DNA from: a virus
Virus genome (UHGV): UHGV-0312702
Length of the DNA stretch: 64,000 nt
Reading direction: 5' to 3' (one strand)
Part shown: positions 4,329 through 47,613 of the stretch, one piece after another
Layout: the number at the start of each line of letters is the position of its first letter
Numbering within the stretch: position 1 is the stretch's first letter
Notes under the pieces: model-generated
Told to the model about the DNA's origin: nothing
Seen by the model: the letters and a program-made list of their open reading frames with translations, nothing else
Databases searched by the model: none
Translations under genes and position numbers: made by a program

Positions 4329-5141
4329 TCAGTGCAGTTGTTCAGTGGTAATCTGTGAGTGTTCTTTTTCAGCCATAGCTGTGATTTGCTTCACAAAATC
4401 GTCACCAAAGTTAATGCGCAGTTTCTCTTCAATGATTGAAGCTCCAATGCTAACCAAAACATCATTGATTGCTTGCATACTGACACCACCAGTCATACTC
4501 TCAATGAACTCGATGCTTGTACCCATCATCTGTGAAAGCTGGATTAGTGCAACGATATTCATCATCGTAGATATAGCTGGAATCATCAATGCAACTTTCA
4601 CCTGAAGTGGCTCTATATCAGCTACAGAGTCATTTTCAACAGCTTCTTCCAAAGAATCTTTAGTTTGCTGGATAATCTCTTTGATTCGTGGGCTTAGCTC
4701 TTCTACACCCCAATCAAGTTTTTCATATCGTGAAAGTTTCTCTTCCATGCGCTTCTCAAGAGCAGCCATAACAGCACTCGTTGATGAAATTAACAGGTCA
4801 ATTAGTTCATCATTACCTGCGAGTAGTAGCAAGTCTTTTTCTTCAGAGGTCATGGCAATATAGTCATTTTTCTGCATCTCCTTAAAGATGAACTCTGCAA
4901 GAGCATCAACACCTACAACGATAGATGCCAAAGCGAGCGTTTTGTCACACAGCATCATATTGACCTGTTCTGCAAAAGCACCGTTATCAGACTTATCTTC
5001 AGGCAAGTTGTAGCTTGCAGGCATAAACTGTTCTGTGTAGTTATTTCCACGAAGAATCATAGCCATGCTTTCTACTGCATTGATTAAGAATGCTTCATCA
5101 ACACCTTTCTCTTCAAGCATCTGTTCCACATTGATATTCAT
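4329..5141 (-). CDS. hypothetical protein
   Basis: 270 aa ORF in compact operon. Confidence 0.5.
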   Translation of the reverse strand: MNINVEQMLEEKGVDEAFLINAVESMAMILRGNNYTEQFMPASYNLPEDKSDNGAFAEQVNMMLCDKTLALASIVVGVDALAEFIFKEMQKNDYIAMTSEEKDLLLLAGNDELIDLLISSTSAVMAALEKRMEEKLSRYEKLDWGVEELSPRIKEIIQQTKDSLEEAVENDSVADIEPLQVKVALMIPAISTMMNIVALIQLSQMMGTSIEFIESMTGGVSMQAINDVLVSIGASIIEEKLRINFGDDFVKQITAMAEKEHSQITTEQLH

Positions 5142-5822: not shown

Positions 5823-8522
5823 ATGGAAAACGTAGATTTTAAAAACTTACATTTAGTTGGTGATACAGAAACTGATGGTTTACTCCTTGAGTTCACTAAA
5901 GTGCACGTAATGGCTTTCGCAGACTATAAATCTGACGATGAAGAGCCACCTGTATGGGTCTTTACAGATGAGCCTATCCTCGGTCACAAATACACCAAGT
6001 ACATCAAGGGTGGGTTACGCGAAGGTGTTGAATTTGCGTTAAAGGCAAAACGTCTTTGCATCCATAATGGTCTCGGTTATGACTGGTGGGTTTTCAATCA
6101 CATTGCACCTGATTTATGGAACTTTGATAATCCAAAATGTAAGCCGTGGAGTAATTTCTTTCAGGATTCTCTTATCCAGTCTCGTGTTCAGTGGATGGAT
6201 AGGCCAACTCCAAAAGGCTATAAAGGTGCTCATGGCTTGGCAGCATGGGGTGCTCGTGTTGGTGTCCGTAAACCAGAGATTGAACATTGGGGTGTGTGGA
6301 ATGCAGAAATCTTCACTCGTGTTGTGGAAGATATCCGTATTAACGCCAAAACTAAACGTGCACTGGATAATGAATATCTCAAGCTAAAGAAGTGTGGCAT
6401 AGACACTTATGAAACCTACATGCGAGCTAAAGAAACATCTTTCTGGATGAGTCAACAGGCTATCAATGGTTGGAAGGCTGATAAAGAGCTTATGGAGTTC
6501 CATGTAAAGGAACTTGACAAGTTGACTAATGAGCTTGCTTCAGAAGTTGAACCACATCTTCCTCCAACTATTAAGACAAAAGGTAAAGTCACTGGAGAAG
6601 AGTTTGCAAAAGCTTGGAATGAGTATGTTGAATCGTTCGGTCATGCAGATGGACTGAAGAGAATTACCAAGTACCCTAAGACGAAGTACCGTCAGCAGGT
6701 ACGTAACGGTGAGATGCAGACATATGAAATCAAGCCATTTGGTAAGCCAACTACAAAGATTTTTAACATTGAAAAGAGAAATTGCTATACACCAACCAAC
6801 TCTGTAACTGGTGAAGAGTACAAGGAAGGTTTTGTAGCAATGAAGGATGCTCGTGCAATTTGCAACGAGTTGAATGCAAAGATTGGTAAGAAATGCAAAG
6901 ACTGGAAGCCAGTAAAAACTGTTAAAACTGTGAAGTACTATAACAGTCATGTTGTTAACCACTTTGAACTTGAGTCAAGTCGCTATACAGGTTTGATTGA
7001 TGCACCATATACACCAATTGAGTTTGAAGTTTCTCGTATGACTCAGGTAGCAGTTGTTAAAGACTACTTGAAATCAGTTGGTTGGATTCCAGATGACTGG
7101 AACTACAAGAAAGATTCAGATGGTCGCCCTGTCAAAGTTTGTCGTTTCAAAGACAACAAAAAGATGATTACAAAGCATCCTAAGTGGCAGGAGATGGTTG
7201 AACGGTGTGGCTTGAGTTATGTTGAACATGAAGGTGTCCAGTACATTGAGCATAACTGGTCTGTGAAGAAGTACACAGATTTGCTTGAGCCTTGTCTGAT
7301 TAGGACTTCACCAAAACTTACTGAATCATCTTATGATACGATTGAAGGTGAGCTTGGACAGAAGATTGCTAAGTACTATACTTTGATGCACCGACGCAGA
7401 ACTATTGAGAACTCAAAGGATGATGAAAAAGGTTGGTTGAACCAGATTCGTCCTGATGGTCGCCTTAGTGCTGGTGCAATGGTATTTGGTACTTCAACTG
7501 GACGTATGACACAATATGGTATTGTAAACGTACCGTCTGGTGCTGCTGTCTATGGGGAACCAATGAGGGCAGTGTGGATTTGTGAAGAAGGTACTAACGT
7601 TGTCTCTGTAGACATGAACTCAGCCCAGCTAGTTCTTCTTTGTAACTTTATGGGTGACAAAGACTTCACCAAAGCGGTAACGCAAGGTAAAGAAGAAATT
7701 GAGTTCATTCGTCAAGAAGATGGACGCTATTACTGTAAACACTTTGATGAGTACCTCAACCCAGAGATTGATAAGTACCTTCGCTATGACTCTGAGAATG
7801 ACCTGTACGTTGTCTATTCAGGGACTGATGCGCATACACTGAACAGTATTTACTTTAACTTGAACGATGAGCAGGATATCTTGACTTGCCGAGCTACTCA
7901 GGATGAGAATCTTCTTCATGAGATTAGTAAGGGTCGTAAGAAAGCTAAGAATGGTATCTATGCACTACTGTTCGGTGCAGGTGATGAGAAGTTTGCTAAG
8001 ACTATTAAAGCTGCAACCACTCAGGAAGGTGCACTGACTAAACAGACTTACTTTATTCGTTTGCCTAAAATTAAGAAGTTGCTGGATGATTTGGAAGCTG
8101 ACTACAAAGCAACTAAAAAGGCACTTGAAGAGGTGTTTGGTAAGACCGCTGCAATTTCTAAAGGGGGATTTGTAAAGGTTGCTGGAGCTTGGTTGTGGTG
8201 TAAATCTCCACACAAACTGTTGAACTATCTTTTGATGGGTTCAGAGGCTCAGATTCAAAATGAGGCAATCAACCTCGCTTGTCGTCGTATGATTGATGAA
8301 GGTTTGATGAAGTTGAATGGTCGTCAACCAGCTATTGGTGCTCGTTTACTCTGTGCATACCACGATGAAACAAGTTGGGAATGTCCAGAAAGTATGACGG
8401 CAGAGGTGAAAGCAGTTACTGACTGGTATTATGGACAAGCTTCTAAGAACTTAGGTCTTAAGAAAGAAACACTTGTCACAGGTACTGGTAAGGTTGGTAA
8501 AAGCTGGCTTGAAGTACACTAA
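5823..8522 (+). CDS. DNA polymerase, family A, with 3'-5' exonuclease domain
   Basis: Exo motif GDTETDGL; pol motif B-like KKAKNGIYALLFGAG; motif C YHDE; start set at ATG 5823 behind RBS GAGGGAG (track start 5793 lacks RBS). Confidence 0.85.
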   Translation: MENVDFKNLHLVGDTETDGLLLEFTKVHVMAFADYKSDDEEPPVWVFTDEPILGHKYTKYIKGGLREGVEFALKAKRLCIHNGLGYDWWVFNHIAPDLWNFDNPKCKPWSNFFQDSLIQSRVQWMDRPTPKGYKGAHGLAAWGARVGVRKPEIEHWGVWNAEIFTRVVEDIRINAKTKRALDNEYLKLKKCGIDTYETYMRAKETSFWMSQQAINGWKADKELMEFHVKELDKLTNELASEVEPHLPPTIKTKGKVTGEEFAKAWNEYVESFGHADGLKRITKYPKTKYRQQVRNGEMQTYEIKPFGKPTTKIFNIEKRNCYTPTNSVTGEEYKEGFVAMKDARAICNELNAKIGKKCKDWKPVKTVKTVKYYNSHVVNHFELESSRYTGLIDAPYTPIEFEVSRMTQVAVVKDYLKSVGWIPDDWNYKKDSDGRPVKVCRFKDNKKMITKHPKWQEMVERCGLSYVEHEGVQYIEHNWSVKKYTDLLEPCLIRTSPKLTESSYDTIEGELGQKIAKYYTLMHRRRTIENSKDDEKGWLNQIRPDGRLSAGAMVFGTSTGRMTQYGIVNVPSGAAVYGEPMRAVWICEEGTNVVSVDMNSAQLVLLCNFMGDKDFTKAVTQGKEEIEFIRQEDGRYYCKHFDEYLNPEIDKYLRYDSENDLYVVYSGTDAHTLNSIYFNLNDEQDILTCRATQDENLLHEISKGRKKAKNGIYALLFGAGDEKFAKTIKAATTQEGALTKQTYFIRLPKIKKLLDDLEADYKATKKALEEVFGKTAAISKGGFVKVAGAWLWCKSPHKLLNYLLMGSEAQIQNEAINLACRRMIDEGLMKLNGRQPAIGARLLCAYHDETSWECPESMTAEVKAVTDWYYGQASKNLGLKKETLVTGTGKVGKSWLEVH

Positions 8523-20687: not shown

Positions 20688-28703
<8,016 letters not shown>

Positions 28704-40215: not shown

Positions 40216-40256
40216 CCTTAAAAAAGACGGCACAGAGACCGTCAAGGAGAAACCAC
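40216..40256 (-). terminator. palindromic hairpin with T-tract, putative terminator/attenuator
   Basis: TTCTCCTT...GACGG-cacagaga-CCGTC...AAGGAGAA; minus strand reads hairpin + TTTTTT. Confidence 0.4.
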
Positions 40257-41765: not shown

Positions 41766-42323
41766 TTACTTTCTTAGTGGATGAATAAAGAATGCCAACA
41801 TAACTCTTTCCCTTGAGAATGCTCTTTCTTCTGGGACAACACTTTTAAGTTTCCACCCAACATAAATTCTCCAGTAAAATTGTTTACCAAAGACTTTAAT
41901 TGATGGGATAAAAGCAAATAATCCCCAAGCATTGCTGTTCCACATTAGGAGATAACCTGTCTGATTATCTTCAGGGTTAGAACTTACGTTGATATTACCT
42001 TTCCACTTAGTAACATCTTTTACATCTCTTCCTAACACATGGTAAGAGAAGTTATAAGCTTTGTTTCTCCAGAGCCATCCAACTCTCTGCATATAAACAC
42101 CGAGCTTACCAATCTTTCTAATCTTAGCCCATCGTTTGATATGACCTGCATCACCATCAATTGGGTTGTCATAAGTCTCCATCCATCTGAAACCAAAAGG
42201 CAGATGACCTTTCTTCTCACTGTAGAATGGGACTACGAAAGGTGCTAAGATAACTGCCAAGATTGCTGCAAATGGCTCTAACAAAGCTAAGAAAATCCAT
42301 GAAGCATACTTCAAATATCTCAT
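41766..42323 (-). CDS. membrane protein
   Basis: hydrophobic N-terminus WIFLALLEPFAAILAVILAPFVVPF. Confidence 0.5.
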   Translation of the reverse strand: MRYLKYASWIFLALLEPFAAILAVILAPFVVPFYSEKKGHLPFGFRWMETYDNPIDGDAGHIKRWAKIRKIGKLGVYMQRVGWLWRNKAYNFSYHVLGRDVKDVTKWKGNINVSSNPEDNQTGYLLMWNSNAWGLFAFIPSIKVFGKQFYWRIYVGWKLKSVVPEERAFSRERVMLAFFIHPLRK

Positions 42324-44549: not shown

Positions 44550-44698
44550 ATTAAATTATCTTTGTAGATAAGCTACCCAGACTTGCTTAAGGTCTGTAGC
44601 GATGTGCCTTGTTGGGTTTAAATCTAGAATTTACCCTTTCACCCTTTGTGGTCGCATACTCACAGGTAAGCTTAATAGCTCACCTACAAAGATAATTA

Positions 44699-44830
44699 CC
44701 AGACCGTTGTTTATCATCTTAAGTGCTACCATTACACCAACTCGACATCTGCCGAGTGAAGGAATCGAACCTTCGCCTTTTCTTTACCGGAGAAATAGAT
44801 TGTTTAAGTTTTGCTGTAAACGGTCTTCTG
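44699..44830 (-). ncRNA. candidate Y-RNA-like ncRNA E1 with tRNA-like module
   Basis: 5' box CAGAAGACC; terminal helix AGACCGTT/AACGGTCT; internal T-arm GAAGG-TTCGATT-CCTTC, acceptor-like hairpin ACTCGGC-AGAT-GTCGAGT, D-arm-like TGGTGTAATGGTAGCAC. Confidence 0.4.
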
Positions 44831-44843
44831 TAAATTTGTTGAG

Positions 44844-44917
44844 CCAGACCAAGTTTTAAATTTTCAAAATTAAATTGGCTTGAAATTTCATACATTCTTG
44901 CTGAATTTGGTCTTCTG
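44844..44917 (-). ncRNA. candidate Y-RNA-like ncRNA E2
   Basis: same 5' box; terminal helix AGACCAA/TTGGTCT (covaries with E1/E3). Confidence 0.35.
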
Positions 44918-45004
44918 CTCCTTTAAAGAATACTCGCAAGAACTCTTTAAGGGAGGGGCTAAATAGCCCTCTCAAAACATCATTTTGAAATACTTATTAT
45001 AATT

Positions 45005-45082
45005 TGGCGGTTACGAAGGGATTTGAACCCTCATCATCTCCCGTGACAGGGGAGTATTTTAACCAGATTAAACTACATAACC
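45005..45082 (-). tRNA. tRNA-Asp (anticodon GUC)
   Basis: stem CTCCC/GGGAG, loop CTGTCAC, discriminator G. Confidence 0.65.
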
Positions 45083-45087
45083 TTTAT

Positions 45088-45175
45088 TGGTGTGCCGTGT
45101 AGGAGTCGAACCTACCGAGTCTCAATGACAAGGGATTTACAGTCCCCACCGCTACCATCTACGGGATAACGACAC
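45088..45175 (-). tRNA. tRNA-Tyr (anticodon GUA), long variable arm
   Basis: 88 nt; loop CTGTAAA. Confidence 0.6.
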
Positions 45176-45184
45176 ATTTTAATT

Positions 45185-45261
45185 TGGCGGTTAGTCAGGG
45201 ATTCGAACCCTGTGCCATTCGCTTAACAGGCGACCGCACATACCTTATGTGCTTCCTAACC
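45185..45261 (-). tRNA. tRNA-Asn (anticodon GUU)
   Basis: loop CTGTTAA. Confidence 0.6.
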
Positions 45262-45272
45262 TTAATACATTG

Positions 45273-45331
45273 CCAGACCGTGTTTTTCTTTTATCCGCAA
45301 AAAGTAGTTTGTTGCTGAATACGGTCTTCTG
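45273..45331 (-). ncRNA. candidate Y-RNA-like ncRNA E3
   Basis: 5' box; terminal helix AGACCGT/ACGGTCT; begins about 6 nt after a tRNA 3' end. Confidence 0.35.
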
Positions 45332-45337
45332 CAAAAT

Positions 45338-45413
45338 TGGAGGCGGGTGCAGGAGTCGAACCTGCCGATACCATGCTAATGAGACATGTGAGACGCCCTT
45401 TCTCTATACCCGC
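45338..45413 (-). tRNA. tRNA-Met (anticodon CAU), second copy
   Basis: loop CTCATTA; possible 1:72 mismatch. Confidence 0.55.
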
Positions 45414-45425
45414 AATTCTTAATGA

Positions 45426-45498
45426 CCAGACCAAATCTCTTCTTTGTCCGATTGAATGTCAGATGAATAAGATTAAATTTGCTGTAATTGGTCTTCTG
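45426..45498 (-). ncRNA. candidate Y-RNA-like ncRNA E4
   Basis: 5' box; terminal helix AGACCAA/TTGGTCT. Confidence 0.35.
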
Positions 45499-45505
45499 TC
45501 AAAAC

Positions 45506-45580
45506 TGGTGTCGTAGACAGGATTCGAACCTGCGAGCAACTGATTGAAGGTCAGGTGGCTAACCATTTGCCTTCTACGAC
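45506..45580 (-). tRNA. tRNA-Glu (anticodon UUC)
   Basis: acceptor GTCGTAG/CTACGAC; loop CCTTCAA. Confidence 0.6.
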
Positions 45581-45581
45581 A

Positions 45582-45938
45582 TTAAACCATTGTAATTCCA
45601 CTATGAACCTCTCTGTGGCAATTAGCGCATAGCAAAACACATTTATCAAGTTCTTTTTTAACCTTTTCCCAAGATGCACCCATAAGTTTTGATGGTGTAT
45701 TCTCTTTTTCGTTTGGGTTAAGGTGATGCCATTCTAAAGCATTTTTACATTTATTATAGCCACAAATTATGCAACTATCGCCATAAAGCTTATATGCTTT
45801 CTCCCTATTGGCATCCTCTCTAAGTTTTGTCCTTAATGCACAACATTTTAGACAATTTACTCTATTACCGGCGTTACCATTCTTATGAATGCTATGTTCA
45901 GTTAAACCATGAACTGGACATTCTTTTAAAAATCTCAT
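45582..45938 (-). CDS. HNH endonuclease
   Basis: EWHHLNP and CANCHREVH motifs plus Cys pairs; start at ATG 45938 with RBS AAGGGG; track start 46016 runs through tRNA-Pro. Confidence 0.7.
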   Translation of the reverse strand: MRFLKECPVHGLTEHSIHKNGNAGNRVNCLKCCALRTKLREDANREKAYKLYGDSCIICGYNKCKNALEWHHLNPNEKENTPSKLMGASWEKVKKELDKCVLLCANCHREVHSGITMV

Positions 45939-45955
45939 AGTAACCCCTTTAAATT

Positions 45956-46032
45956 TGGTCTCTGTTGGAGGACTTGAACCTCCGGCCTTACCGCCCCAAA
46001 CGGAACGCTCTACCAAGCTGAGCTAAACAGAG
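45956..46032 (-). tRNA. tRNA-Pro (anticodon UGG)
   Basis: acceptor CTCTGTT/AACAGAG; loop TTTGGGG. Confidence 0.6.
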
Positions 46033-46140
46033 ATAAACTTTTCAAACTCTATGTAACCACTTTAACATTATTTTTTAGTGGTTGTCAAGAACTTTTTTAA
46101 AATATTTTTCAGTATCTTAGAAAAGCTCTCATTTCGTTTC

Positions 46141-46169
46141 TATGTAGAACATATTAAAGGGTATCAAAC
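46141..46169 (-). promoter_or_regulatory. sigma70-like promoter at head of tRNA cluster
   Basis: minus strand TTGACA (46164-46169), 17-nt spacer, TAATAT (46141-46146); embedded in AAAGGGTA/TACCCTTT hairpin. Confidence 0.5.
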
Positions 46170-46197
46170 ACATTGTCAATACCCTTTTTAAAACTTT

Positions 46198-47613
46198 TTA
46201 CCAGATGTAACGGTCAATCATTACTGCTTTGAGCATTACGCTGATTGGGTCAAACTTCTCACCACCAAGCAGGGCTTTTAAAGTGGCTGGGGAGAACCCT
46301 GATACCATTGCTACACCGTTATCCTTAACAGACACTTCGCAAGTACCACTACGGTTTGCTAAGTACCAGAATACCAGTTGTGGCATTTCGTATCCAGCTT
46401 TTTTGTACTTACTACGAATTGCTTCAAAGTTTGTACGACCATTTGCACCATCAACCTGATTGAACTCCATATCAGAGAAGATGATAAGCTTACTTGGCAT
46501 ATCTTTCTGAGTCAAGTTGTTTCTCTTGCCTGTCTCAAGAATACGGTCAAAAGCTGCTTGTAAGTTGGTTGAACCATATTCAACATGACGCATTACCTGA
46601 CGGTGACGGTTTCGTAAATCACCACTCAGTTCGATGAAATGAGGGTTTGTTGAATAAACCATTAACTCGTTCTTAAAGCAACCTGTATTGCGTTCTGCTA
46701 CATACAAGGCAAGTGATACACCAATATCGAGGGCAGTAATTGAGCCAAGATTCACCCAAGACATTGAGCTTGAAACATCAGTCATACACAAGATGTTTTC
46801 ACCTTCTGCCATCCAGTTTGGTAGTGCTTTCCACTGCTCATTAGCAACATCTGCATTACCATACTTGATAGATTTAATCACATCGTATGGATAAACAGCA
46901 CCAGCATTAATCTTAGTCTCACCCTTTGATAAGGACTCAACGTAAGCTTTGTAGCGTTCTCCATCTTTACGGTTAAATAATTTTTGGTAACGTGCAGCAG
47001 CAAGTGAAGGAATCTTACTGTAGTCAATCTTACCAAACTCATTAGCAGAGATTTTTTGTTCAACTGTATCAGATAGTGCAGACAGCAGTGTGCGGTACTC
47101 TTTCTCGCTCAAGTTTGCAAACTTACAGAAACGTTTTACAAACTGTTTGTGACGTGGTTTTACTCGTGGTAACCACTTAGCTGCTAAACCTGCTGTTGCA
47201 GGGTCTAGTAAAGCTGCTTCTAAATGTTTGAAGGCATCTGTCTCAAAACGAGTACCTACAAAGATTTTGAAGTCATCAAAGCGACCAAGCTCTGCAATCT
47301 TATCCATAATGCGAAGAACCTGTGTAGGCTCTAAAACTTTATCTTCAATCGCTTGAAGTAAAACAGTTCGGAAAGCCTTACGCTCACCCATACCTTCTCG
47401 TACATCTCGCATATGCAGTAAAATACGAACTGCAACATCAACATCCTCATGCAAAGCTTTGTAGAACAAGTCTGGTAAGATTTCTACATTGCTACGGCTA
47501 GAACCAGCAGCTTTGTAAAAGTCTACAAGAGCAGACATTGATGAAGTATGGTTTACAGCACCATTTTCAGTTCGACCTGCATGAAGGTGCGCATGTTTAA
47601 ATAATTCGCTCAT
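46198..47613 (-). CDS. Ro60/Rsr-like protein (TROVE-like N-terminus + vWA domain)
   Basis: MIDAS DVSSSM plus LGSI, GSTN...IIFSDMEF segments resembling Ro60 vWA as recalled from memory. Confidence 0.55.
   Translation of the reverse strand: MSELFKHAHLHAGRTENGAVNHTSSMSALVDFYKAAGSSRSNVEILPDLFYKALHEDVDVAVRILLHMRDVREGMGERKAFRTVLLQAIEDKVLEPTQVLRIMDKIAELGRFDDFKIFVGTRFETDAFKHLEAALLDPATAGLAAKWLPRVKPRHKQFVKRFCKFANLSEKEYRTLLSALSDTVEQKISANEFGKIDYSKIPSLAAARYQKLFNRKDGERYKAYVESLSKGETKINAGAVYPYDVIKSIKYGNADVANEQWKALPNWMAEGENILCMTDVSSSMSWVNLGSITALDIGVSLALYVAERNTGCFKNELMVYSTNPHFIELSGDLRNRHRQVMRHVEYGSTNLQAAFDRILETGKRNNLTQKDMPSKLIIFSDMEFNQVDGANGRTNFEAIRSKYKKAGYEMPQLVFWYLANRSGTCEVSVKDNGVAMVSGFSPATLKALLGGEKFDPISVMLKAVMIDRYIW

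What the first reader, a model, noticed from the sequence alone, without database searches (positions are those of the whole stretch)
44699..45498. Four paralogous structured ncRNA candidates (E1-E4) among the tRNAs, with covarying terminal helices
On the minus strand, elements at 44699-44830, 44844-44917, 45273-45331 and 45426-45498 all start with CAGAAGACC-NN-WTWCAGCAA and end with NN-GGTCTGG. The NN positions differ between copies (GTT/AAC versus AA/TT) yet stay complementary, which is the signature of a conserved RNA helix closing the 5' and 3' ends. E3 and E4 begin about 6 nt after a tRNA 3' end. This end-pairing helix plus variable interior matches the architecture of Y RNAs bound by Ro60.
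Basis: seen in the sequence. Interest (0 to 1): 0.9.

Follow-up and report, generated by a model that had tools for sequence, protein, structure and literature searches.

The report
Small RNAs partnering phage Ro60-like protein
Four small RNA genes hidden among the tRNA genes of a Felix O1-like phage belong to a widespread, unannotated RNA family that sits next to a Ro60-like protein gene in many phages and has the same end structure as the unexplained Class I RNAs of social amoebae.

Summary
Four minus-strand elements share CAGAAGACC-NN-WUWCAGCAA … NN-GGUCUGG (4 found, 0.22 expected by chance).

The window is a Felixounavirus. The gene 0.7 kb upstream on the same strand (46198-47613) is a DUF2828 protein whose predicted structure matches only Ro60/Rsr/TROVE structures over its full length.

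The RNA module is a 7-bp helix AGR-N4/N4-YCU followed by G, then single-stranded UU-WCAGCAA. It recurs next to DUF2828 genes in distant phages of Vibrio, Listeria, Mycobacterium and metagenomes: 123 on the gene strand, 3 on the other. The helix covaries strongly, and the association holds from protein to RNA and from RNA to protein.

E1 carries a circularly permuted tRNA-like domain in the same order as bacterial YrlA Y RNAs. E2-E4 carry small hairpins.

No Rfam family is matched at threshold. The terminal module is not the Y-RNA Ro site. It is the signature of Dictyostelium Class I RNAs (AAG start, variable stem, UUACAGCAA, CUG end), which were reported as unique to Dictyostelia.

Most likely these are Y-RNA-like partners of the phage Ro60-like protein. 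Binding and expression are inferred, not shown.

The parts
46198..47613 (-). Ro60-like protein gene (471 aa; Pfam DUF2828 + DUF7788); the proposed protein partner
   Evidence: Pfam. AlphaFold model pLDDT 89, pTM 0.88. The seven best PDB matches are all full-length Ro60/Rsr/TROVE structures, E 4e-9 to 7e-7. The Bas63 orthologue gp130 is reported as Ro60-like and as a counter to the Ppl defence (PMC11482910).
45423..45501 (-). E4. Outer helix UGAC/GUCA; internal loop AGA/G; inner helix AGACCAA (45494-45488) / UUGGUCU (45434-45428); UU-ACAGCAA (45487-45479); interior 5-bp/7-nt-loop hairpin UCUGA-CAUUCAA-UCGGA (45463-45447)
   Evidence: In orthologues the interior stem covaries (UCUGA/UCGGA, UUUUC/GAAAA, AUUUC/GAAAU) and the loop is hypervariable.
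45270..45334 (-). E3. Outer helix UUGC/GCAA; inner helix AGACCGU (45327-45321) / ACGGUCU (45281-45275); AU-UCAGCAA (45320-45312); small U/A-rich hairpin with a GCGGA loop
   Evidence: (fold z = -3.1). Best non-tRNA Rfam hit is Dicty_Class_I_RNA, 20 bits. Recovered correctly by model R1.
44841..44920 (-). E2. Outer helix GAGC/GCUC; inner helix AGACCAA (44913-44907) / UUGGUCU (44852-44846); AU-UCAGCAA (44906-44898); interior 7-bp hairpin UUUCAAG…UUUGAAA with a conserved loop
44696..44833 (-). E1. Outer helix UUAC/GUAA; inner helix AGACCGUU (44826-44819) / AACGGUCU (44708-44701); U-ACAGCAA (44818-44811); interior is a circularly permuted tRNA-like domain
44723..44795 (-). tRNA-like domain of E1 in permuted order: anticodon-arm-like hairpin UUUCU-CCGGUAA-AGAAA (44795-44779); T arm GAAGG-UUCGAUU-CCUUC (44774-44758); closed acceptor-like stem ACUCGGC-AGAU-GUCGAGU (44757-44740); D arm GUGU-AAUGGUA-GCAC (44737-44723)
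   Evidence: MFE fold. Partial Rfam tRNA match 23.3 bits, E = 0.005. The acceptor-like stem takes three fully compensated forms in orthologues, one with an encoded GCCA. Relatives L018 6770-6880 and L203 4560-4631 match Rfam YrlA at 38 bits, E 2e-7 to 7.5e-5.
45509..45580 (-). tRNA-Glu(UUC) immediately upstream of E4 (encoded CCA 45508-45506)
   Evidence: Rfam tRNA 55.4 bits. Not called by ARAGORN.
45338..45414 (-). tRNA-Met between E4 and E3. E4 ends 8 nt before it; E3's outer helix starts 3 nt after its CCA
45185..45261 (-). tRNA-Asn, 8 nt downstream of E3
46059..46179 (-). Two sigma-70-like promoter matches between the Ro60-like gene and the first tRNA (46179-46151 TTGACA-17-TAATAT; 46088-46059 TTGACA-18-TAAAGT with TG); candidate start of the tRNA/E transcription unit
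   Evidence: These are consensus matches only, and the total number of promoter-like sites in the region equals the chance expectation.
40226..40243 (-). Terminator-like hairpin plus T-run after the last tRNA of the cluster; candidate end of the transcription unit

Best explanation
E1-E4 are genes for four paralogous small non-coding RNAs (about 65-140 nt) that act as the RNA subunits of a ribonucleoprotein formed with the Ro60-like DUF2828 protein encoded just upstream. In other words, they are a phage counterpart of the Ro60/Y RNA system.

Proposed steps:
1. They are transcribed with the tRNA cluster and cut out by the tRNA-processing machinery. RNase P cutting at the next tRNA, followed by 3' trimming back to the terminal helix, would release them. 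This is inferred from the layout.
2. The shared terminal module is the protein-binding site. It consists of 5' purines, a 7-8-bp helix with invariant outer A-U and G-C pairs and a free core sequence, a 3' unpaired G, and single-stranded UU-WCAGCAA at a fixed 8-nt distance from the closing G. This is inferred from the conservation pattern and the strict gene linkage.
3. The variable interior is an effector or decoy module that differs between paralogues, as in Y RNAs. E1 presents a tRNA-shaped domain, as YrlA does. E2-E4 present small hairpins, one with a hypervariable 7-nt loop.
4. The particle acts on host RNA metabolism or defence. The Bas63 orthologue of the protein counters the Ppl defence system (literature). 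The mechanism, and whether the RNAs are needed for it, are unknown.
For: Real and non-random: 4 motif hits against 0.22 expected; strict signature 7 against 0.68 in shuffles.

RNA-level helix: outer and inner helices covary among the four paralogues. Across 38 distinct family members, 5 of 7 pairs use 3-4 Watson-Crick types, 87 cells are changed on both sides against 25 in shuffles (0 of 500 shuffles reach this), and sliding the partner by 1-3 columns drops pairing from 98% to 31-43%. G·U wobbles occur in orthologues.

Non-circular pairing test: of 82 5' motifs on the gene strand in distant loci, 47 have a perfect 7-nt complement within 260 nt downstream, and all 47 are followed by G. Controls are 0 of 82 upstream, 3 of 82 with the reversed sequence and 0 of 15 on the other strand.

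Linkage to the protein: 123 elements on the gene strand against 3 on the opposite strand in 80 DUF2828 loci. 43 of 57 distant elements lie within 1 kb of the gene, where only 16% of the DNA lies, p = 5e-23. In the reverse direction, among 80 loci chosen by the RNA 5' motif alone, 9 of 17 with the helix have the gene on the same strand 136-577 nt away, against 0 of 63 without the helix. Three tandem elements flank the gene in Listeria phages List-36 and CKA15 and in mycobacteriophage Lolly9, where the gene is annotated 'Ro-like RNA binding protein'.

Protein is Ro60-like; PMC11482910.

E1 is built like YrlA; relatives hit Rfam YrlA at E 2e-7 to 7.5e-5; architecture as defined in PMC4201824.

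Functional context: an RtcB RNA ligase lies near the gene in Listeria phages, as in the bacterial rsr-yrlA-rtcBA operon. A canonical phage Ro60 binds phage-encoded Y-like RNAs and host PNPase (PMC12135203).
Against: - There are no expression data for this phage or any close relative, and no binding data for any DUF2828 protein.
- Rfam Y_RNA and YrlA do not match the window elements, even at E up to 10.
- The published Ro-binding motifs (GNCGAAN0-1G, GGUCCGA, CGAA) are absent, so the protein-RNA contact, if any, must differ from canonical Ro60/Y RNA.
- 27 of 65 distant DUF2828 loci gave no strict hit within 7 kb. Relaxed variants such as UGG… starts are visible in some of them.
- The promoter evidence is weak: the number of sites equals the chance expectation.
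- The reported anti-Ppl activity was assigned to the protein gene alone.
Confidence: 0.72

Rival explanations
1. The elements are cis-acting processing or spacer structures of the polycistronic tRNA precursor (for example RNase III or RNase E entry sites or folding insulators) and have no function as free RNAs.
For: They lie inside a tRNA cluster. E3 and E4 start 3-4 nt after a CCA and end 8 nt before the next tRNA. They have no individual promoters.
Against: In distant phages the same module tracks the DUF2828 gene, not tRNAs. 40 elements near the gene have no tRNA within 300 nt, and 16 loci have elements but no tRNA at all. In Listeria phage CKA15 three elements form their own unit behind a near-consensus promoter. 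An invariant single-stranded 7-9-nt motif and diverse structured cargos are not expected of simple spacers.
Confidence: 0.08
2. E1 is a permuted or degenerate tRNA gene, and E2-E4 are decayed copies. They are evolutionary debris of tRNA-cluster rearrangement, possibly driven by the neighbouring HNH homing endonucleases.
For: E1 contains all four tRNA arms in permuted order. Some GenBank records annotate the E1 locus as tRNA-Thr, tRNA-OTHER or a pseudo-tRNA. An HNH endonuclease ORF lies nearby. Some relatives encode CCA after the acceptor 3' strand.
Against: The terminal module is conserved from Enterobacteria phages to Listeria phages and mycobacteriophages, with compensatory changes, which indicates purifying selection. 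E1's acceptor-like stem is closed by a 4-nt loop, so it cannot be aminoacylated without cleavage. The anticodon-like loop has C at position 33. E2-E4 have no tRNA features yet keep the module.
Confidence: 0.04
3. They are DNA-level repeats: terminal inverted repeats of a miniature mobile element, or recognition sites for a recombinase or homing endonuclease.
For: Multiple copies with inverted-repeat ends and variable interiors. Homing endonuclease genes lie in the cluster.
Against: The strand bias relative to the neighbouring gene is extreme (123 to 3), whereas DNA inverted repeats would be strand-symmetric. G·U pairs in the helix would be A·C mismatches on the other strand. The helix sequence is free while pairing is kept. 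The asymmetric single-stranded motif sits on one arm only.
Confidence: 0.03
4. They are base-pairing regulatory sRNAs. The invariant UUACAGCAA would be a seed that pairs with a conserved host or phage RNA target, and the neighbouring Ro60-like protein would be at most a chaperone or unrelated.
For: The motif is predicted to be single-stranded. It is invariant across phages of very different hosts, which could reflect a universal RNA target. Base-pairing to targets was one of the hypotheses considered for Dictyostelium Class I RNAs (PMC7919456).
Against: No target was identified. Invariance from Gram-negative hosts to Gram-positive hosts and Actinobacteria, together with strict linkage to one protein family in both directions, is more simply explained by recognition by that protein. 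The invariant helix-base pairs and 3' G sit at a fixed distance from the motif, which suggests a single composite binding site.
Confidence: 0.1

Closest known systems
Dictyostelium Class I RNAs (Rfam RF01414; Aspegren 2004, Avesson 2011, Kjellin 2021)
   Same: The terminal module is the same. Both have a 5' AAG whose G pairs with the C of a 3' CUG(U). Both have a 6-7-bp end-to-end stem conserved in structure but not in sequence. Both have an adjacent single-stranded (C)UUACAGCAA, an A/U-rich variable interior, a typical size of 50-65 nt, and many paralogous, clustered genes (PMC7919456; curated sequences). RF01414 is the best non-tRNA Rfam hit for E3 (20 bits), L030 6795-6844 (24.7 bits) and the Listeria element L202 3621-3676 (23.1 bits), each across the full model.
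   Different: All scores are below the gathering score of 41.5. The spacing from the closing G to ACAGCAA is 8 nt in phages and 9 nt in D. discoideum. The phage RNAs are bacterial-virus genes processed from tRNA operons or driven by sigma-70/sigma-A promoters, not DUSE-driven nuclear genes. Some phage members carry tRNA-like cargos. Ounavirinae members add an outer helix. Class I RNAs were reported as unique to Dictyostelia, and their only shown direct binder is the RRM protein Rnp1A/CIBP. No Ro60-like partner is known there.
Bacterial YrlA / Y RNAs with Ro60 (Rsr) (Rfam RF02553; Chen et al. 2014)
   Same: Both are modular RNAs whose 5' and 3' ends pair. Both are encoded within a few kb of a Ro60-type gene and on the same strand, and often in several paralogues (YrlA plus the shorter YrlB). 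E1 and its relatives have the same permuted tRNA-like domain: V or anticodon-like arm, T arm, closed acceptor-like stem, D arm (one search compared). Relatives reach 38 bits, E 2e-7 to 7.5e-5, on the YrlA model. RtcB is a neighbour in Listeria phages.
   Different: The window elements are not detected by the YrlA model. The similarity of relatives is confined to the tRNA-like core. The proposed Ro-binding motif GNCGAAN0-1G is absent and is replaced by AAG-helix-UUWCAGCAA…CUG. The protein partner is the DUF2828 branch, with 12-16% identity to solved Ro60 structures and no TROVE Pfam hit.
Thermus phage phiLo Ro60 with Yrl1/Yrl2 (PMC12135203)
   Same: A phage-encoded Ro60-type protein with two or more phage-encoded Y-like RNAs next to the gene. 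That study showed binding in vitro and assembly with host PNPase, and proposed a counter-defence role. Its crystal structure (9KOP) is the best PDB match to the window protein.
   Different: phiLo Ro60 is a canonical TROVE protein, and its RNAs were recognised by the CGAA motif in a large internal bulge. The family described here has a different RNA module and a different protein subfamily.
Metazoan Y RNAs (Rfam RF00019)
   Same: A terminal stem formed by the 5' and 3' ends serves as the Ro60 site, and variable loops define paralogues (hY1, hY3, hY4, hY5). The Ounavirinae members have a helix, an asymmetric internal loop and a second helix, reminiscent of the bulged Y RNA stem (established knowledge).
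   Different: There is no sequence similarity, no Rfam hit, no GGUCCGA/bulged-C site and no Pol III/La context.
Circularly permuted tRNA genes (Cyanidioschyzon merolae and some archaea; from established knowledge)
   Same: In E1 and relatives such as L018 6378 and 6752, the 3' half (T arm, acceptor 3' strand, sometimes CCA) precedes the 5' half (acceptor 5' strand, D arm).
   Different: There is no bulge-helix-bulge motif and no functional anticodon arm. The junction is occupied by the conserved protein-binding-type module, which is shared with paralogues that have no tRNA features. Bacteria lack the splicing endonuclease pathway that re-permutes such transcripts.

Membership tests
Y RNA / YrlA (Ro60-associated RNAs) | Reaches the Rfam gathering score of RF00019 (Y_RNA) or RF02553 (YrlA, 69 bits) | tested here: not met
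   No hit to either model on E1-E4 at gathering score, at E up to 10 in a 1.8-kb search, or in a 151-nt search of E1 alone. Relatives L018 6770-6880 and L203 4560-4631 reach 38 bits, which is significant but below the gathering score.
Y RNA / YrlA (Ro60-associated RNAs) | The 5' and 3' ends pair to form the stem that carries the protein site | tested here: met
   The stem covaries among paralogues, orthologues and distant phages.
Y RNA / YrlA (Ro60-associated RNAs) | Conserved Ro-binding sequence near the 5' end (GNCGAAN0-1G in bacteria; GGUCCGA in vertebrates) | tested here: not met
   The sequence read shows CAGAAGACC…UWCAGCAA instead, with no CGAA. In one search the YrlA terminal stem does not align with the family's terminal module.
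Y RNA / YrlA (Ro60-associated RNAs) | Encoded within about 4 kb of a Ro60 orthologue on the same strand (criterion of Chen et al. 2014) | tested here: met
   The elements lie 0.7-1.5 kb downstream of the Ro60-like gene on the same strand. The linkage is statistically strong in both directions. Caveat: the gene is a DUF2828 Ro60-like protein, not a TROVE-annotated orthologue.
Y RNA / YrlA (Ro60-associated RNAs) | YrlA only: tRNA-like domain with T arm, D arm and a closed acceptor-like stem between them | tested here: met
   Met for E1 only. E2-E4 lack it, as YrlB does.
Y RNA / YrlA (Ro60-associated RNAs) | Physically bound by the Ro60 protein | not testable with these tools
   Needs RNA immunoprecipitation or gel-shift assays.
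Dictyostelium Class I RNA (RF01414) | Reaches the Rfam gathering score (41.5 bits) | tested here: not met
   E3 20 bits, E1 12.8 bits, L030 element 24.7 bits, L202 element 23.1 bits.
Dictyostelium Class I RNA (RF01414) | Short stem joining the 5' and 3' ends, conserved in structure but not in sequence | tested here: met
   for the phage elements; for Dictyostelium.
Dictyostelium Class I RNA (RF01414) | Conserved motif CCUUACAGCAA next to the 5' stem strand (U3, C6, C9, A10, A11 nearly invariant) | tested here: met
   UU-WCAGCAA is present in all four window elements and is invariant in 38 of 38 aligned family members. The spacing is one nucleotide shorter than in D. discoideum.
Dictyostelium Class I RNA (RF01414) | Conserved termini: start AAG, end CUGU, with the G pairing the C | tested here: met
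   Genomic sequence reads …AAG-ACC… and …GGU-CUG-G in the window, and AAGG…/…CCUG(U/A) in distant phages. The actual RNA ends are unknown.
Dictyostelium Class I RNA (RF01414) | DUSE promoter about 60 nt upstream; found only in Dictyostelia | tested here: not met
   These are bacteriophage genes inside a tRNA operon or behind sigma-70/sigma-A-type promoters.
tRNA | Cloverleaf in standard order, detected by ARAGORN or Rfam RF00005 at gathering score (29 bits) | tested here: not met
   ARAGORN calls nothing in E1-E4. Rfam tRNA reaches only 22-23 bits, and only on part of E1.
Ro60 / TROVE protein family (for the neighbouring gene) | HEAT-repeat ring (TROVE) followed by a vWA domain | tested here: met
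   The predicted structure (pLDDT 89) aligns over its full length with Xenopus and human Ro60, Deinococcus Rsr and phiLo Ro60, TM 0.5-0.65. Invariant DxSxS residues in the vWA region.
Ro60 / TROVE protein family (for the neighbouring gene) | Sequence-level membership (Pfam TROVE, or PDB relatives by sequence) | tested here: not met
   Pfam gives DUF2828 + DUF7788 only. No NCBIfam hit. No PDB hit by sequence.

The most novel reading that the evidence does not exclude
The phage elements and the Dictyostelium Class I RNAs are one RNA family, defined by the AAG-stem-UUACAGCAA…stem-CUG module. This family would be the dedicated RNA partner of the DUF2828 branch of Ro60-like proteins, which occurs in phages, giant viruses of protists and eukaryotes. 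If so, Class I RNAs, whose function and partner have been open questions since 2004 and which were thought unique to social amoebae, would be Y-RNA-like subunits of a Ro60-like particle. The uncharacterised protein DDB_G0281243, pulled down with Class I RNA DdR-21, is the obvious candidate partner. In phages the particle would display exchangeable RNA cargos (tRNA mimics, anticodon-loop-sized hairpins) to subvert host RNA surveillance or defence.
Probability: 0.4. Interest if true: 0.92.

Novelty: new variant of a known kind. Interest (0 to 1): 0.82.

Why it matters
1. It gives names and coordinates to an RNA family that is unannotated in hundreds of sequenced phages. These include Felix O1-type phages and the Listeria phages of the P100/A511 group, which to my knowledge are used in biocontrol.
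2. It gives the Ro60-like DUF2828 proteins a concrete candidate RNA ligand with a defined recognition module. The proteins are found in 710 phage records, and one orthologue is already implicated in countering a bacterial defence system. Binding, structure and anti-defence experiments become directly feasible.
3. It shows that a Ro60-type system can use a quite different RNA handle while keeping the tRNA-mimic cargo. This helps separate what is essential in Y RNA biology from what is lineage-specific.
4. It links phage RNAs to the dictyostelid Class I RNAs. This turns a 20-year-old question, what Class I RNAs bind and do, into a testable hypothesis, and it raises the possibility of virus-to-eukaryote transfer of an entire ribonucleoprotein system.

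Tried and rejected
- **Rfam at gathering score on the window and nine distant loci:** only tRNAs.
- **Covariance model R1 built from spliced terminal modules:** it recovers E3 correctly but cannot span the long interiors of E1, E2 and E4, so it picks spurious 3' strands. I dropped it as a detector in favour of a structure-aware scan with strand, shuffle and reversed-sequence controls.
- **First naive helix scan (any 7 bp within 230 nt):** too noisy, 261 hits on one strand against 141 on the other. Replaced by the AGR/YCU-G signature.
- **Does Dictyostelium encode a DUF2828 protein, and is DDB_G0281243 one?** The AFDB fold library was unavailable. Avesson 2011 and Aspegren 2004 are not held. 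The gene name occurs in one preprint only. The proteome files in Kjellin's supplement are truncated and contain no family signature peptide, apart from one in an unrelated vWA protein. Unresolved.
- **Expression evidence from Listeria phage CKA15:** the published hyper-abundant region 26,236-26,727 maps to a ROOL RNA, not to the elements. The paper gives no coordinates for the other two abundant regions, so they cannot be assigned to the three elements.
- **Fifth candidate in the window (42071-42279):** it lies inside a bona fide DUF7338 gene and was set aside as probably coincidental.
- **Anticodon-stem-loop decoy idea for the short elements:** some distant members have canonical YU-NNN-RA loops (CUCUUAA, CUCCUAA, CUUUUAA). 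The window's E3 and E4 loops lack U33 and vary freely, so the idea is not claimed for this window.
- **Literature searches by DUF2828 and by the motif string:** nothing relevant.
Full report
**1. The observation**

The 5' pattern CAGAAGACCNNWTWCAGCAA occurs four times, all on the minus strand, against 0.22 expected from dinucleotide shuffles. Each copy has the matching NN-GGUCUGG 53-126 nt downstream. The variable positions stay complementary: GUU/AAC in E1, GU/AC in E3, AA/UU in E2 and E4.

An asymmetric internal loop (AGA on the 5' side, G on the 3' side) separates it from the inner helix. The elements therefore span 44696-44833 (E1), 44841-44920 (E2), 45270-45334 (E3) and 45423-45501 (E4). 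E3 and E4 start 3-4 nt after the encoded CCA of tRNA-Met and tRNA-Glu and end 8 nt before the next tRNA.

**2. Genome and neighbouring gene**

The window is a Felix O1-like phage (Felixounavirus; best match Salmonella phage Meda, 94%). The elements lie in a 25-tRNA cluster on the minus strand. In annotated relatives their positions are empty gaps or are occasionally mislabelled as tRNA-Thr, tRNA-OTHER or hypothetical protein.

The gene just upstream of the cluster on the same strand (46198-47613, 471 aa) is Pfam DUF2828 + DUF7788. It has no TROVE hit, no NCBIfam hit and no PDB relative by sequence. An AlphaFold model built from 61 homologues is confident (pLDDT 89, pTM 0.88). Its seven best PDB matches are all full-length Ro60-type structures: phiLo phage Ro60 (9KOP), human and Xenopus Ro60, and Deinococcus Rsr (E 4e-9 to 7e-7, TM 0.5-0.65, 12-16% identity). 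Isolated vWA domains follow far behind.

Against viral models the same fold appears in other phages and in giant viruses (Pithovirus, Marseillevirus, CroV, ChoanoV1, Bodo saltans virus). A canonical 'Ro-like RNA binding protein' of a Gordonia phage is a more distant match. By tblastn the family is present in 710 phage records across Escherichia, Salmonella, Mycobacterium, Vibrio, Listeria, Staphylococcus, Campylobacter, Enterococcus, Bacillus and others.

A preprint on the Felixounavirus Bas63 independently noted that the orthologue gp130 resembles Ro60 and counters the Ppl defence system. [quoted passage not shown]

**3. The RNA family beyond this phage**

I fetched 80 loci encoding relatives of the protein: 15 Ounavirinae and 65 distant phages at 39-47% protein identity. 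The exact window motif is confined to the Ounavirinae. There are 3-4 copies per genome, always on the gene strand and 0.3-1.2 kb downstream.

An unbiased k-mer count showed that TACAGCAAA/TTACAGCAA recurs downstream of the gene in 17-19 of the distant loci. Inspection showed a common design:
- purine-rich 5' flank;
- a helix strand beginning AGR;
- 1-2 pyrimidines;
- WCAGCAA;
- a variable interior;
- the complementary strand ending YCU, followed by G.

A strict scan for this design finds 123 elements on the gene strand and 3 on the opposite strand. In the distant loci alone it finds 60 against 3, with at least one element in 38 of 65 loci.

That scan demands pairing, so I ran a non-circular test with candidates chosen by the 5' motif alone. 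Of 82 on the gene strand in distant loci, 47 have a perfect 7-nt Watson-Crick complement within 260 nt downstream, and all 47 are followed by G. The controls are 0 of 82 upstream, 3 of 82 for the reversed sequence, 0 of 82 for the non-reversed complement, and 0 of 15 for motifs on the other strand.

I aligned 38 distinct terminal modules, using real sequence with only the interior removed. The two outermost pairs are invariant (A-U, G-C). The five inner pairs each use three or four Watson-Crick types. 87 cells are changed on both sides against 25 in shuffles (0 of 500 shuffles reach this). Sliding the 3' partner by 1-3 columns drops pairing from 98% to 31-43%. G·U wobbles in orthologues (AGACCGA/UUGGUCU, AGGCCAA/UUGGUCU, AGACUGU/ACGGUCU) fit an RNA helix on this strand and not a DNA repeat. 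In the window the strict signature gives 7 hits against 0.68 in shuffles.

**4. Linkage to the gene, not to tRNAs**

In the distant loci, 43 of 57 elements lie within 1 kb of the DUF2828 gene, where only 16% of the flanking DNA lies (binomial p = 5e-23). Forty of those near the gene have no tRNA within 300 nt, and 16 loci have elements but no tRNA at all.

The reverse test scanned the viral collection for the RNA 5' motif alone (AAAGGNNNNTTWCAGCAAA). Among the 80 loci returned, 63 lack the complementary strand, and none of them encodes a DUF2828 relative. The other 17 have the complementary strand plus G, and 9 of them encode the gene on the same strand 136-577 nt away. A tenth comes from a contig already known to carry the gene.

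Targeted checks found three tandem elements in the unannotated gap directly upstream of the gene in Listeria phages List-36 and CKA15. Three more lie directly downstream of the 'Ro-like RNA binding protein' gene of mycobacteriophage Lolly9, there with GC-rich helices (UGGACACA/UGUGUCCA-G and others) but the same CAGCAA block.

**5. Interiors are modular cargo**

*E1.* E1's interior folds as an anticodon-arm-like hairpin, a canonical T arm (GAAGG-UUCGAUU-CCUUC), an acceptor-like stem closed by a 4-nt loop (ACUCGGC-AGAU-GUCGAGU) and a canonical D arm (GUGU-AAUGGUA-GCAC). It is a circularly permuted tRNA shape whose open junction is taken by the terminal module. This is the order that defines bacterial YrlA Y RNAs (PMC4201824).

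Among Ounavirinae orthologues the acceptor-like stem appears in three fully compensated versions: ACUCGGC/GUCGAGU, ACACGU/GCGUGU and ACCCUUC-GCCA-AACA-GAAGGGU. The last has an encoded CCA. The T and D arms stay constant.

*Distant members.* These carry similar permuted tRNA-like domains (several with CCA), a non-permuted tRNA-like core (L067 9329-9427, Rfam tRNA 55.7 bits), bare 5-bp/7-nt-loop hairpins, or short A/U-rich loops.

*E2-E4.* Each has its own conserved hairpin. E4's stem covaries between clades while its 7-nt loop is hypervariable.

**6. Comparison with known RNA families**

No Rfam family reaches its gathering score on any element. Two sub-threshold matches are informative because they coincide exactly with elements found independently.

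*YrlA.* The YrlA model (RF02553) matches L018 6770-6880 (38.2 bits, E 7.5e-5; 2e-7 in the local search) and Lolly9 4560-4631 (37.7 bits, E 3e-5). The aligned part is only the tRNA-like core. YrlA's terminal stem, which carries the GNCGAA motif, does not align with the family's terminal module.

*Class I RNA.* The Dictyostelium Class I RNA model (RF01414) is the best non-tRNA hit for E3 (20 bits), and also hits E1 (12.8 bits), L030 6795-6844 (24.7 bits) and the first Listeria element (23.1 bits), each across the full model. Its consensus is a terminal stem, CUUACAGCAA, a variable interior and a stem ending CUG.

Kjellin et al. (PMC7919456) define Class I RNAs by four features:
- a 6-bp end-to-end stem conserved in structure but not in sequence, with many compensatory changes;
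- an adjacent 11-nt motif CCUUACAGCAA;
- a conserved start AAG and end CUGU, with the G pairing the C;
- a size of about 60 nt.

They concluded the class is unique to Dictyostelia. The curated D. discoideum sequences read G-UUGAC-C-UUACAGCAA…GUCAA-C-UG. Of 34 distinct sequences, 31 carry NCAGCAA at offset 9 from the closing G, and 29 have the 6-bp stem. The phage elements read A-A-G-ACCAA-UU-ACAGCAA…UUGGU-C-U-G, with offset 8. The phage family therefore combines a Class-I-type handle with, in some members, a YrlA-type tRNA mimic.

**7. The Dictyostelium link is not closed**

The preprint version of Kjellin et al. lists the four proteins pulled down with Class I RNA DdR-21: GuaB, NdkC, the RRM protein CIBP/Rnp1A (a direct binder) and DDB_G0281243, of unknown function. 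I could not establish whether DDB_G0281243, or any dictyostelid protein, is a DUF2828 or Ro60-like protein. The family's own name and the hits show DUF2828 genes in plants and other eukaryotes, and one search shows them in giant viruses. Homology of the RNA modules is plausible but unproven, and convergence on a similar protein surface remains possible.

**8. Expression and function**

There is no direct evidence for this phage. The layout suggests one polycistronic unit. Promoter-like sites lie upstream of the Ro60-like gene and between it and the first tRNA. A terminator-like site follows the last tRNA. No individual promoters precede the elements. The promoter count equals the chance expectation.

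In Listeria phage CKA15 the three elements sit behind a near-consensus TTGACA-17-TATCAT promoter. A multi-omics study reported three extremely abundant non-coding regions within 2 kb upstream of the orthologous gene CKA15_055 and in the same direction, and guessed they might be Y RNAs (PMC12282133). The only region given with coordinates (26,236-26,727) maps to a ROOL RNA. The other two are described only as unannotated regions near tRNA genes. The gap holding the three elements is one of the few candidates, but this is not established.

The same study found the CKA15_055 protein in purified virions, which would suit an early-acting factor. Listeria phages also encode an RtcB ligase 1.3 kb downstream, echoing the bacterial rsr-yrlA-rtcBA operon. 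A canonical phage Ro60 binds phage Y-like RNAs and host PNPase in vitro (PMC12135203).

**9. Verdict**

The elements are not members of Rfam Y_RNA, YrlA, Class I or tRNA by the curated thresholds. They define a distinct family that works like Y RNAs, carries a YrlA-like cargo in E1, and uses the handle so far known only from Dictyostelium Class I RNAs. Rival readings (tRNA-processing spacers, tRNA debris, DNA repeats, base-pairing sRNAs) are each contradicted by at least one direct test, although the sRNA reading cannot be fully excluded.

Noticed in passing
window 44553-44697 (-): The 146-nt unannotated spacer between E1 and tRNA-Lys folds into a very stable structure closed by a stem of about 25 bp (MFE -50.2 kcal/mol, z = -6.2, 0 of 200 shuffles fold as well). 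It is conserved at 90% or more in 196 Felixounavirus records. Its interior includes a mini-hairpin ACAGAC-CUUAAGCAA-GUCUGG that resembles a degenerate terminal module. It could be another ncRNA, an RNase III site or a decayed element.
   Followed up: partly
window 42071-42279 (-): A fifth match to the strict signature (AGAGCCAU-UU-GCAGCAA … AUGGCUCU-G, 209 nt) on the same strand within the tRNA cluster, conserved in other Ounavirinae. It lies entirely inside a genuine DUF7338 protein gene (41766-42323, E = 1.5e-61), so it is probably coincidental.
   Followed up: partly
window 45509-45580 (-): A tRNA-Glu(UUC) with encoded CCA is found by Rfam (55.4 bits) but missed by ARAGORN. Its anticodon loop reads CCUUCAA, with C rather than U before the anticodon.
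   Followed up: no
L202 2426-2977 (Listeria phage List-36), equivalent to CKA15 (OR088597.1) about 26,236-26,727: A ROOL RNA (Rfam RF03087, 91.5 bits, just under the gathering score of 99.1, E = 1e-17) lies about 1 kb upstream of the Ro60-like gene. It coincides with 'CKA15_059-061', the most abundant transcript of phage CKA15 (up to 67% of phage reads), which the published study left unidentified.
   Followed up: partly
L204 3158-4678 (CKA15_055) and H134 (Pectobacterium phage CBB): The Ro60-like DUF2828 protein of Listeria phage CKA15 was detected in purified virions (20 peptides, 57% coverage; PMC12282133). The CBB homologue is annotated 'structural protein'. The protein may be packaged and delivered with the DNA.
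   Followed up: no
L202 6810-8021; L204 6009-6199: Listeria phages encode an RtcB-type 'tRNA splicing ligase', a phosphohydrolase and a tRNA amidotransferase just downstream of the Ro60-like gene. This resembles the bacterial rsr-yrlA-rtcBA RNA-repair operon.
   Followed up: no
L018 5091-6880: One metagenomic phage carries five family members in tandem upstream of the gene. Two of them (6378-6508 and 6752-6880) are complete permuted tRNA-like RNAs with an encoded CCA between the acceptor 3' and 5' strands.
   Followed up: partly
window 44602-44859 (+): An 85-aa ORF antisense to E1/E2 has no Pfam match. It corresponds to 'hypothetical protein' calls in some GenBank relatives and is probably a spurious annotation over the RNA genes.
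   Followed up: partly
D. discoideum Class I RNAs DdR-66 and DdR-67 (supplement of PMC7919456): The two longest Class I RNAs have interiors (…GGUGUAGAAUAGGUGGGAGAC…GUGAAAUACCACC…) that, from memory, resemble a large-subunit rRNA hairpin. If so, they would parallel the tRNA-mimic cargos of the phage RNAs. Not checked with any tool.
   Followed up: no
window 45582-46016 (-): An HNH endonuclease ORF sits inside the tRNA cluster between tRNA-Pro and tRNA-Glu. Its longest reading (TTG start) overlaps tRNA-Pro by about 60 nt, so the true start is probably further downstream; the Meda homologue is 118 aa.
   Followed up: no
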